Source: Escherichia coli (GTDB lineage: Bacteria > Pseudomonadota > Gammaproteobacteria > Enterobacterales > Enterobacteriaceae). Taken from it: DNA of 64,000 nt. The notes under the pieces were generated by a model. It did no database searches, was not told the origin of the DNA, and worked only from the letters and a program-made list of their open reading frames with translations. Shown piece after piece: positions 62,772 to 64,000 of the stretch (position 1 is the stretch's first letter; the number at the start of each line of letters is the position of its first letter). The position numbers were made by a program, and so were the translations under genes. The DNA lies in NCBI RefSeq assembly GCF_003334335.1, contig NZ_QOWQ01000006.1, one strand, 5' to 3'.

Positions 62772-62794
62772 TGGTGCCGGACTCGGAATCGAAG
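62772..62794 (-). repeat. 22-nt remnant of the tRNA-Phe 3' end (att-type direct repeat marking a pheV-island border)
   Basis: tggtgccggactcggaatcgaa is the reverse complement of the tRNA-Phe 3' end (...TTCGATTCCGAGTCCGGGCACCA) with one C missing; sequence then diverges from the tRNA, so this is not an intact tRNA gene. Confidence 0.6.
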
Positions 62795-62903
62795 AATGCT
62801 TCTATCATGTTGATATTAATTTATTTTGTTTAGTTTGGTGAAATATGTACCCTCTTTTGTACCCGCAGTCCCTTTTGATATCGAAAGGGAATCAAACTCG
62901 GGG

Positions 62904-63473
62904 TCAGGCTGAGAGCACAGAAGGAAAGTGCCTGGCTATTATATCGTTAATTCTGTCAATCAGCTCCAGCCTTTTGAAAGTGATGTGTGCAGATCCCTTC
63001 TTAAAGTATTTAATGATGAACATCTCATCTTCATAGCGTCCTTTACCCTGAACGGACTGTATGTGGTCATCCAGATTAATGGTGATATTCCCTCGGTTGT
63101 CGGGGATCGGTTTACCGCTGAGCAGATGCAACATTCTTTCCAGGTCAGCCAGGCGATCTGCCTGCATTCCACTGATAAGATGAAATCCCCACTGGTCCCA
63201 TCTCACCAGATTGTTGACGATAATTTTACTGCCAAATTTACAGGGTGAGTTGGTTTTGTAATCCCAGCTCAGCCCTTTGAAGACGTTGATCACTCCCCGT
63301 TCAAACACTTCATCTTTGTTCTGGTGCAGTTGTTCAAATGTGCTCAGAATGTTCGCTTCGCTGATTTCCGGAAAATTATCATATTCCAGTGACCTGGACC
63401 TGACTGAGGTGGAGCAGATAACGTCCGTATTCTCGTTGACCACTTCCGGACGGGAGACTGTGATTTCAGACAT
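62904..63473 (-). CDS. hypothetical island-encoded protein
   Basis: 189-aa ORF with ATG start; no domain assignable by eye. Confidence 0.5.
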   Translation of the reverse strand: MSEITVSRPEVVNENTDVICSTSVRSRSLEYDNFPEISEANILSTFEQLHQNKDEVFERGVINVFKGLSWDYKTNSPCKFGSKIIVNNLVRWDQWGFHLISGMQADRLADLERMLHLLSGKPIPDNRGNITINLDDHIQSVQGKGRYEDEMFIIKYFKKGSAHITFKRLELIDRINDIIARHFPSVLSA

Positions 63474-63569
63474 AATCGATATTCCTTTTTGCAGATAAAT
63501 GAAAACGCCAGCCGTGTTCAGGCTGGCGTCAGTGGAATGAAGTCTGGTGAGTGAGATGATGAGTGAGAC

Positions 63570-63767
63570 TCACCGGTTCTGGTGCTGAAGCTGCAGTTGG
63601 CGCAGGGTACGGATATCCTCTCTGGCCTGTTCGATACAGGGCAACAGTGCTGCTGAATCCGTTTTATCCTCATTGTTGTCAAAGATAATTCCCGATTCGC
63701 AGTCGATATTGTCCTGCAGCCACGCAATCAGAATATCCAGTGCGGTTTCCGTGGTTAATGATTTCAT
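63570..63767 (-). CDS. small hypothetical island-encoded protein (about 65 aa; listed ORF extends to 63812)
   Basis: Acidic small ORF MKSLTTETALDILIAWLQDN...; starts 10 bp after the stop of the upstream partial ORF; hairpin plus T-run downstream (about 63501-63535). Confidence 0.4.
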   Translation of the reverse strand: MKSLTTETALDILIAWLQDNIDCESGIIFDNNEDKTDSAALLPCIEQAREDIRTLRQLQLQHQNR

Positions 63768-63777
63768 GTTGTTCCTG

Positions 63778-64000
63778 GTTACCAGTTGAAAGTGGGTAAA
63801 CCCGGCAGGCATTCAGCGCTGGCATCCAGATGAATGAGACTGACGCCATAACGTCGGGTAAGTGTGATAACCAGACGACGGAACGTTTTTGACAGCCCCA
63901 GGCGTTTAAGCCGCAGAACCGGATATGACCACGCATCGGTACGTAACAGATATCCGCTACCTGTGAAATGAATCCATTCTGATTCACCAACGTCACTGGT
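63778..64000 (-). CDS. C-terminal fragment of an island-encoded protein (5' end outside window)
   Basis: Open frame to the window edge ending ...LIHLDASAECLPGLPTFNW with TAA at 63778-63780; more protein-like than the overlapping listed ORF 63679..63996. Confidence 0.35.

What the first reader, a model, noticed from the sequence alone, without database searches (positions are those of the whole stretch)
62772..64000. tRNA-Phe att remnant marks the far border of a pheV-inserted island; cargo includes small unknown genes
A 22-nt near-copy of the tRNA-Phe 3' end in inverse orientation lies about 150 bp after gspM, where the intact pheV gene would sit in an island-free chromosome. It is followed by AT-rich DNA with oppositely oriented ORFs: a 189-aa protein, a 65-aa acidic protein and an upstream partial gene 10 bp away, an arrangement that could be a toxin-antitoxin-like or regulatory pair. 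The island body and integrase would lie beyond the window.
Basis: partly seen in the sequence, partly recalled or inferred. Interest (0 to 1): 0.55.

Follow-up and report, generated by a model that had tools for sequence, protein, structure and literature searches.

The report
Known pheV genomic-island border (attR) repeat
The 22-base tRNA-Phe fragment is real: it is the already published right-hand attachment scar (attR) of the common E. coli pheV genomic island, and the small genes beside it are the conserved, uncharacterised tail of the island's "yee" module, so the finding is correct but ordinary.

Summary

- **The remnant.** Window 62772-62793 (TGGTGCCGGACTCGGAATCGAA) is the reverse complement of the last 23 nt of tRNA-Phe, minus one C.
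- **Its position.** It sits exactly where pheV begins in E. coli K-12. The gspM/yghD-side backbone is identical to K-12 up to that point and diverges straight after it.
- **The rest of the island.** Strain G1/2 is 99.97% identical to the window over all 64 kb. There the island runs 74.5 kb further, to a P4-type tyrosine integrase and an intact pheV next to yqgA.
- **Close relatives.** Five others show the same layout, with the remnant 50-76 kb from pheV.
- **Prior publication.** The same attR string, including the 1-nt deletion, is in Table 1 of PMC11537424 for 16 reference strains. About 27% of complete E. coli genomes carry this junction.
- **The three ORFs.**
  - The first is DUF4942, here a common allele with a 91-codon in-frame deletion.
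  - The second is DUF957/Aec78 (65 aa), which is under purifying selection.
  - The third is the C-terminal part of DUF5983.
  - No evidence shows that they form a toxin-antitoxin pair. The real pair, cbeA/cbtA, lies just beyond the window.

Novelty: already known. Interest: low.

The parts
62087..62623 (+). gspM/yghD, the last backbone gene of the T2SS-beta operon (context)
   Evidence: ORF list. RefSeq annotation of the identical G1/2 sequence. Collinear with K-12 yghD.
62735..62763 (-). Backbone intrinsic terminator that follows pheV in K-12. Here it follows the remnant and faces the island.
   Evidence: Terminator scan: 12-pair stem plus a T run. The sequence is identical to the K-12 yghD-pheV spacer.
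62772..62793 (-). attR: a 22-nt imperfect copy of the last 23 nt of pheV (CCC becomes CC)
   Evidence: The same string is published as the GI-pheV attR, TTCGATTCCGAGTCCGG-CACCA (PMC11537424 Table 1). Only two copies of the core exist in the G1/2 region: this one and the 3' end of the intact pheV.
62794..62903 (.). Non-coding island terminus (P' arm), conserved in islands at pheV and pheU. It contains AAATATGTACCCTCTTTTG at 62841-62859. The 12-nt core of that motif recurs inverted 21-39 nt upstream of the integrase start at the other island end.
   Evidence: Alignment of five island ends. Motif comparison of the two ends. Assigning it as an arm-type Int binding site is inference only.
62904..63473 (-). 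DUF4942 gene, an allele with a 273-nt in-frame internal deletion (189 aa instead of 280 aa; residues 27-117 missing)
   Evidence: Pfam PF13708, E = 2.5e-54, model positions 32-189 of 190. Protein and DNA alignments with 280-aa copies. The deletion junction is present in 684 of 5426 genomes.
63504..63530 (-). Intrinsic-terminator-like hairpin between the DUF957 and DUF4942 genes
   Evidence: Terminator scan: 10-pair stem with 7 GC pairs, then TTCATTT.
63570..63767 (-). DUF957 / Aec78 gene, 65-aa acidic protein
   Evidence: RefSeq annotation. 341 homologues, almost all enterobacterial, one named Aec78. pN/pS is about 0.1-0.2 among island copies. AlphaFold2 predicts a two-helix hairpin, pLDDT 75. 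No Pfam-A hit.
63779..64000 (-). 3' part of the DUF5983 (Aec77/YeeW-like) gene, encoding the C-terminal 73 of 162 residues. In G1/2 the gene continues to the position equivalent to 64267 and overlaps the cbtA stop by 4 nt.
   Evidence: Translation. G1/2 annotation. Pfam DUF5983_N and DUF5983 on the full G1/2 protein.

Best explanation
Window 62772-62793 is the distal attachment site (attR) of a GI-pheV genomic island.

**How the remnant arose**
- A P4-family tyrosine integrase recombined the element's attP with attB, the last 23 nt of the chromosomal pheV gene.
- That event rebuilt an intact pheV next to the integrase gene, about 50-76 kb beyond the window end.
- It left the displaced copy of the tRNA 3' end here, still followed by the original pheV terminator and the gspM backbone.

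**What the window's last 1.2 kb contains**
- It is the island's right terminus: a conserved non-coding arm and the tail of the CP4-44-like "yee" module.
- The gene order is cbeA-cbtA-DUF5983-DUF957, a terminator, then DUF4942.

**Where the crossover occurred (inference)**
- The remnant carries CC while the functional tRNA keeps CCC.
- The same CC variant is found at pheV and at pheU.
- The missing C is therefore most likely donated by the element.
- That would place strand exchange within the terminal TGGTGCC of the tRNA gene.

**The three genes**
- Their functions are unknown.
- DUF4942 here is an internally deleted, probably crippled, allele.
For: **Shown by tool results**
- The backbone is identical to the K-12 yghD-pheV spacer up to the tRNA 3' end and unrelated after ...GGAATCGAA.
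- The window is 99.97-99.98% identical to G1/2 over 64 kb.
- In G1/2 the island is 74,480 bp between the two core copies, with no internal copies. It ends in a 420-aa integrase next to intact pheV and yqgA. The integrase has the Arm-DNA-bind_3, Phage_int_M and Phage_integrase domains.
- The remnant-to-pheV distance is 74.5, 74.8, 76.1, 50.1, 73.7 and 73.7 kb in six close relatives.
- 1467 of 5426 complete E. coli genomes carry the junction. Island-free genomes match only the backbone plus tRNA-Phe.
- The same 22-nt CC variant and the same terminal arm occur at pheU.

**Shown in the literature**
- The identical attR, with the deletion marked, is listed for 16 reference strains.
- For H10407 the published island end, 3,486,209, coincides with the remnant position in hit H18.
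- The flu, yee, nan and iuc-sat modules are described there.

**Inferred**
- The crossover position.
- The role of the terminal motif as an integrase arm site.
Against: - The window's own genome beyond position 64000 was not available. The island body is inferred from relatives that differ from the window by 10 SNPs and one 7-nt indel.
- One otherwise matching genome, NMBU-W12E19, has the integrase-pheV end inverted and about 306 kb away, so rearranged versions exist.
- The imperfect repeat may mean the island no longer excises.
- The CC variant could also have spread by recombination between island ends rather than through attP.
Confidence: 0.95

Rival explanations
1. The 22-mer is a chance match, or part of the conserved backbone, and is not an att site.
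For: None was found. The match is short and imperfect, with one base missing.
Against: - No match occurred in 100 shuffles, even with 3 mismatches allowed.
- It lies at exactly the pheV position of K-12, with the homology breakpoint at its inner edge.
- A second copy lies within intact pheV at the other end of the foreign DNA.
- It is published as attR.
Confidence: 0.01
2. The site is a true attR, but this lineage did not acquire the island by integrase action. The island was inherited or imported with its flanks by homologous recombination. It is now a fixed, non-excising chromosomal segment, so the repeat is a fossil.
For: - The repeat is imperfect, 22 of 23 nt.
- PMC11537424 argues that GI-pheV types co-evolve with the chromosome and that mismatched repeats lower excision.
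- The island is riddled with IS66, IS21, IS3 and IS4 elements and with pseudogenes.
Against: - The integrase ORF is intact, at 420 aa with all three domains.
- Both repeats are present.
- The same end occurs at pheU as well as pheV, which needs site-specific integration at some point.
- This rival concerns history and current activity. It does not change what the feature is.
Confidence: 0.35
3. The DUF5983 and DUF957 genes form their own toxin-antitoxin or regulatory pair.
For: - Both genes are small and adjacent on the same strand, 11 nt apart.
- The 65-aa product is acidic.
- DUF5983 is consistently downstream of CbtA in E. coli, and one pipeline flagged it as a 'partner' (PMC10790755).
- A preprint argues that a small protein next to DUF5983 is real and dimeric.
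- DUF957 is under purifying selection.
Against: - No hits to PADLOC, NCBIfam or Pfam toxin or antitoxin families, and no similarity to solved structures.
- An established type IV pair, cbeA/cbtA, already occupies the operon.
- DUF5983 is often truncated without loss of the neighbouring genes: 64 aa in K-12 yeeW and 67 aa in WL7562. That is not expected of an essential antitoxin or a toxin kept in check.
Confidence: 0.1
4. The 189-aa DUF4942 allele is a functional shortened protein rather than a decaying gene.
For: - The deletion is in frame and keeps the start codon, the first 26 codons and the whole C-terminal alpha/beta part.
- The allele is present in 684 of 5426 genomes.
- Against its closest full-length relative, the retained part differs by 7 synonymous and 1 non-synonymous changes.
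Against: - The deletion removes nearly the whole N-terminal helical domain, helices 24-121 of the model.
- It also removes the family-invariant W95 and the near-invariant D91, L98, G103 and W116.
- The allele's frequency can be explained by clonal inheritance: 576 genomes are at least 99% identical across the junction.
- Most of the synonymous excess may predate the deletion.
Confidence: 0.3

Closest known systems
GI-pheV of E. coli with the '23-bp imperfect' attR (for example H10407_GI-pheV, 536 PAI V, 042, 55989; PMC11537424)
   Same: - The attR string is identical, including the 1-nt deletion.
- The chromosomal site is the same, between pheV and yghD.
- There is a P4-type intP4 next to intact pheV.
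- The flu and yee modules lie at the distal end.
- H10407 matches the window's last 2 kb at 99.6% identity.
   Different: In G1/2 the cargo combines the shiF-iuc-iutA-sat and nan modules with this attR type. The paper describes those modules as typical of intP4.1 islands, which have a 19-bp repeat. The intP4 allele of the relative was not typed here.
Cryptic prophage CP4-44 of E. coli K-12 (flu-yeeR-yeeS-yeeT-cbeA-cbtA-yeeW)
   Same: The gene order is the same: Ag43, RadC/JAB, DUF987, CbeA, CbtA, DUF5983.
   Different: - In K-12, yeeW is a 64-aa stump of DUF5983.
- No DUF957 or DUF4942 genes are annotated after it.
- No pheV-type repeat bounds it.
Islands inserted at pheU (for example in MS6193 and DFL.5)
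   Same: They have the same 22-nt CC remnant, the same roughly 110-nt terminal arm and the same DUF4942-DUF957-DUF5983 tail.
   Different: - They lie next to cadC and the yjdQ integrase fragment instead of gspM.
- They carry the full-length 280-aa DUF4942.
Phage P4 integration into a tRNA gene, and the she (SHI-1) island at pheV of Shigella flexneri
   Same: From my own knowledge, not tested here: a P4-family integrase, attB at the 3' end of a tRNA gene, the tRNA regenerated at the integrase side and a partial tRNA copy left at the far side. PMC11537424 notes that the flu and yee modules also occur in the S. flexneri island.
PAI I-AL862 'aec' genes
   Same: A homologue of the 65-aa protein is deposited as Aec78. 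DUF5983 proteins are named Aec77.
   Different: Only the names were seen. The island itself was not examined.

Membership tests
tRNA-integrated genomic island (GI-pheV): attR direct repeat | A partial copy of the 3' end of the tRNA gene, in the same orientation as the intact gene | tested here: met
   22 of 23 nt on the minus strand, like pheV in this orientation.
tRNA-integrated genomic island (GI-pheV): attR direct repeat | The repeat abuts backbone that directly follows the tRNA gene in island-free genomes | tested here: met
   The yghD-pheV spacer is identical to K-12 up to the repeat. Island-free genomes match the backbone plus tRNA-Phe only.
tRNA-integrated genomic island (GI-pheV): attR direct repeat | An intact tRNA gene and an adjacent P4-type tyrosine integrase at the other end | tested here: met
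   Met in six near-identical genomes: G1/2, G6/7, G8, SCU-104, S1-KEN-03-A and 99RCEF. This is by proxy, because the window ends before that point.
tRNA-integrated genomic island (GI-pheV): attR direct repeat | Intervening DNA is accessory: variable, mosaic and of different composition | tested here: met
   - The junction is present in 27% of genomes.
- GC is 0.463 in the window's island part and 0.492 in the whole island, against 0.522 in the backbone.
- The island is IS-rich with virulence modules.
tRNA-integrated genomic island (GI-pheV): attR direct repeat | Integrase-dependent excision and integration at these repeats | not testable with these tools
   This needs PCR or long reads for the attB and attP junctions.
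CbtA/CbeA type IV toxin-antitoxin system (considered for the window ORFs) | A protein with the CbtA toxin domain or the CbeA antitoxin domain | tested here: not met
   - The window ORFs match only DUF4942 and DUF5983, or nothing.
- No PADLOC or NCBIfam hits.
- cbtA and cbeA are separate genes upstream, outside the window.
DUF4942 (Pfam PF13708) | A significant match to the family HMM | tested here: met
   E = 2.5e-54.
DUF4942 (Pfam PF13708) | Full-length architecture (about 260-290 aa) including the conserved N-terminal helical region | tested here: not met
   Residues 27-117 are deleted. Family members typically align over query residues 17-278. Invariant W95 is lost.
DUF5983 (Pfam PF25638 + PF19419) | A match to the N- and C-terminal domain HMMs | tested here: met
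   Met on the G1/2 protein, whose part within the window is identical to the window sequence. Only the C-terminal 73 residues lie in the window.
DUF957 / Aec78 | Sequence membership in the named family | tested here: inconclusive
   RefSeq and UniRef name close homologues DUF957. The Pfam-A copy used here gives no hit even at E <= 10.

The most novel reading that the evidence does not exclude
Two readings remain open.

- DUF5983 and DUF957 (Aec77/Aec78) may be working accessory components of the CbtA/CbeA module, for example a regulator or a second neutraliser. DUF5983 overlaps the cbtA stop by 4 nt, and both genes lie in the same operon.
- DUF4942 may be the target-recognition or partner domain of an orphan methyltransferase, which would give the island terminus a role in island maintenance or in conflict with phages.

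Nothing here excludes either reading. DUF957 is under purifying selection, and a subset of DUF4942 proteins is fused to an MTS methyltransferase domain.
Probability: 0.15. Interest if true: 0.4.

Novelty: already known. Interest (0 to 1): 0.08.

Why it matters
The finding correctly marks where core chromosome ends and a large virulence and fitness island begins. In the closest relatives that island carries aerobactin, a SPATE autotransporter, sialic-acid catabolism genes, Ag43 and cbtA/cbeA. This is useful for annotation but adds nothing new, because the att sequence, the site and the module structure are all published.

The only open biology is the function of the conserved terminal genes DUF5983, DUF957 and DUF4942. 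They are present in thousands of E. coli genomes and remain untested.

Tried and rejected
- **Family searches for the three proteins.** NCBIfam and PADLOC gave no hits. PHROGs linked DUF4942 only weakly to a 'DNA methyltransferase' phrog.
- **Solved structures by sequence.** A phmmer search of solved structures with all three proteins found nothing meaningful.
- **DUF4942 fold search.**
  - The AlphaFold2 model of the full-length 280-aa DUF4942 has pLDDT 88.
- **DUF957 model.** It is a two-helix hairpin with pLDDT 75. That is too small and generic for a fold search to mean anything, so none was run.
- **attP-like reading at pheU.** I first read the pheU junctions in MS6193 and DFL.5 as an attP-like or tandem-island arrangement, because their left flank resembles the integrase-side arm. 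K-12 has the same integrase fragment (yjdQ) as ordinary backbone downstream of pheU. They are therefore plain attR junctions, and I withdrew that reading.
- **Internal repeats.** A search for internal copies of the core in the G1/2 island, as a test of tandem accretion, found none with up to 4 edits.
- **AntiFam link.** I could not check whether the 65-aa protein equals the AntiFam entry ANF00264 discussed in bioRxiv 10.64898/2026.06.09.728211.

Full report

Window 62772-62793 reads TGGTGCCGGACTCGGAATCGAA. Aligned with K-12 and with the intact pheV of strain G1/2, it is the reverse complement of the last 23 nt of tRNA-Phe, with one C of the CCC run missing. It occurs once in the window. No match appeared in 100 dinucleotide-preserving shuffles, even with three mismatches allowed. 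ARAGORN finds no tRNA gene in the window, and the full pheV sequence is absent.

The remnant starts 148 nt after the gspM/yghD stop codon. GC drops from 0.53-0.60 in the gsp genes to 0.42-0.46 just after it. The three minus-strand ORFs are present as described: 189 aa, 65 aa (acidic), and a partial gene 11 nt upstream of the 65-aa gene.

**2. Position relative to an island-free chromosome**

In K-12 the order is yqgA, pheV, yghD. The window is identical to the K-12 yghD-pheV spacer, including the pheV terminator hairpin at 62735-62763, up to the 3' end of the tRNA gene. Homology stops immediately after ...GGAATCGAA. The 22-mer is therefore the displaced tRNA end at a backbone-to-foreign-DNA breakpoint. 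It is not a chance match inside backbone.

**3. What lies beyond the window**

The window is 99.97-99.98% identical over all 64 kb to E. coli G1/2 (NZ_CP060083.1). The differences are 10 SNPs and one 7-nt indel. In G1/2 the foreign DNA continues with these genes:
- DUF5983, cbtA, cbeA, DUF987, a JAB/RadC protein, an antirestriction protein, DUF932, DUF905 and IrmA;
- an IS-disrupted Ag43-like autotransporter, a YeeP-like GTPase, YfjI and a small excisionase-like HTH protein;
- a nan cluster, iucABCD-iutA and a SigA/Sat-type autotransporter;
- an AAA protein, a 420-aa integrase, intact pheV and then yqgA.

The integrase has the Arm-DNA-bind_3, Phage_int_M and Phage_integrase domains. Only two copies of the 23-nt core exist in this region, the remnant and the pheV 3' end. 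They are 74,480 bp apart, and no internal copies exist.

From the coordinates of two searches, the distance from the remnant to pheV is:

| Strain | Distance (kb) |
|---|---|
| G1/2 | 74.5 |
| G6/7 | 74.8 |
| G8 | 76.1 |
| SCU-104 | 50.1 |
| S1-KEN-03-A | 73.7 |
| 99RCEF | 73.7 |

One relative, NMBU-W12E19, has the integrase end inverted and about 306 kb away, so rearranged versions occur.

**4. How common it is, and whether it is known**

A 201-nt query across the junction is at least 80% covered in 1467 of 5426 complete E. coli genomes. Island-free genomes match only the backbone half, with 'tRNA-Phe' annotated under the match.

Table 1 of PMC11537424 (PLoS Genet 2024) lists the attR TTCGATTCCGAGTCCGG-CACCA, with the deletion marked, for 16 reference strains. 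These include H10407, 536, 042, 55989, ED1a and REL606. For H10407 the published island end, 3,486,209, is exactly where the remnant falls in hit H18. The same paper describes the intP4 integrase as the only conserved gene. It also describes the shiF-iuc-iutA-sat, nan, flu and yee modules. The feature is therefore already known in full.

**5. Mechanism**

Established knowledge of P4-family integrases, together with the anatomy shown above, gives the following account. Recombination between attP and attB, the 3' end of pheV, regenerates the tRNA gene at the integrase side. It leaves the displaced copy at the far side.

A further point is inferred. The same CC variant and the same roughly 110-nt terminal arm occur at islands inserted in pheU, next to cadC and yjdQ. 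Both intact tRNA genes keep CCC. The missing C is therefore most simply explained as element-borne. That would place strand exchange within the terminal TGGTGCC, so only the last 7 nt or fewer of the tRNA gene are replaced.

The two island ends also share an inverted TGTACCCTCTTT core. It lies at window 62847-62858, within 62841-62859, and at 21-39 nt upstream of the integrase start. About 0.002 exact 12-mer matches would be expected by chance. The ends also share a direct GTTGATAT(T/G)AATT near each core. These are candidate integrase-binding sites, but that is not tested.

**6. The cargo genes in the window**

*(a) 62904-63473, DUF4942.*
- It matches Pfam DUF4942 at E = 2.5e-54.
- Other islands carry a 280-aa protein. 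The window allele has a 273-nt in-frame deletion that removes residues 27-117.
- In the AlphaFold2 model (pLDDT 88), that segment is nearly the whole N-terminal helical domain.
- It also holds the invariant W95 and several near-invariant residues.
- The deletion junction is present in 684 of 5426 genomes, so this is a common allele and not a sequencing artefact.
- The family has 2233 cluster representatives, mostly 260-290 aa.
- Some members are about 465 aa and carry a C-terminal MTS methyltransferase domain.
- A PHROG annotated as DNA methyltransferase also matches.

*(b) 63570-63767, DUF957/Aec78.*
- It is a 65-aa protein with an AGGA ribosome-binding site.
- It has 341 homologues, almost all enterobacterial.
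- Among island copies pN is 0.02-0.05 and pS is 0.11-0.27, so it is a genuine gene.
- The predicted structure is a two-helix hairpin.
- It has no Pfam-A hit.

*(c) 63779-64000, DUF5983.*
- This is the C-terminal 73 residues of a 162-aa protein.
- In G1/2 its start overlaps the cbtA stop by 4 nt.

A terminator-like hairpin at 63530-63504 separates the DUF957 and DUF4942 genes. The recognised toxin-antitoxin pair, cbeA/cbtA, lies just outside the window. Nothing tested here shows that DUF5983 and DUF957 are themselves such a pair. The literature notes only their constant position downstream of cbtA.

**7. Verdict**

The feature is the published attR of GI-pheV, so it is already known. Interest is low, at 0.08. 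The residual open question is the function of the conserved terminal DUF genes.

Noticed in passing
window 30660-30666 (within ORF 30628-31737, minus strand): Relative to G1/2, the window has a third copy of a 7-nt unit, GGCAGGT, inside the serine-palmitoyltransferase-like gene (spt). This shortens the ORF from 390 to 369 aa through a C-terminal frameshift.
   Followed up: partly
window about 24800-34600: A gene cluster lies between yghS and yghO. It encodes an ATP-binding protein, an LPS-biosynthesis or flippase-like protein, a hypothetical protein, YtfJ, LptF/LptG paralogues, spt, an acyl carrier protein, an epimerase and a fatty acyl-AMP ligase (annotation of G1/2). From my own knowledge, not checked here, it is absent from K-12. 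It looks like a lipid or aminolipid synthesis-and-export locus.
   Followed up: no
window 62841-62859 and L003 5611-5629: An inverted shared motif, with core TGTACCCTCTTT, occurs at the two ends of the island. The second copy lies just upstream of the integrase start. A direct GTTGATAT(T/G)AATT lies near both cores. These are possible integrase arm or core binding sites.
   Followed up: partly
L012 1192-1627 (K-12) and L008 1152-1530: The K-12 backbone downstream of pheU carries an integrase fragment (yjdQ). Its flank closely resembles the integrase-proximal arm of the pheV island, which suggests an ancient decayed island at pheU. In MS6193 and DFL.5 a newer island with the same attR sits next to it.
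   Followed up: partly
NZ_CP042892.1 (hits H6 and H91): In strain NMBU-W12E19 the attR junction and the int-pheV-yqgA end are on opposite strands and about 306 kb apart. This implies a large inversion with one end inside the island.
   Followed up: no
window about 10269-11153: yghX is annotated as a frameshifted pseudogene in the near-identical G1/2 genome.
   Followed up: no
L002 2996-3202 and 727-2217: Inside the G1/2 island, an excisionase-like HTH gene lies near a yfjI-like gene, with no integrase beside them. The excisionase match is weak: TIGR01764, E = 1.6e-4, below the curated cut-off. This is consistent with the distal 22 kb being a CP4-like element remnant fused into a composite island.
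   Followed up: no
window 46100-62623: The complete T2SS-beta locus (sslE, pppA, gspS2, gspC to gspM) is intact here. From my own knowledge, K-12 keeps only part of it; one search shows only yghD and yghE there.
   Followed up: no
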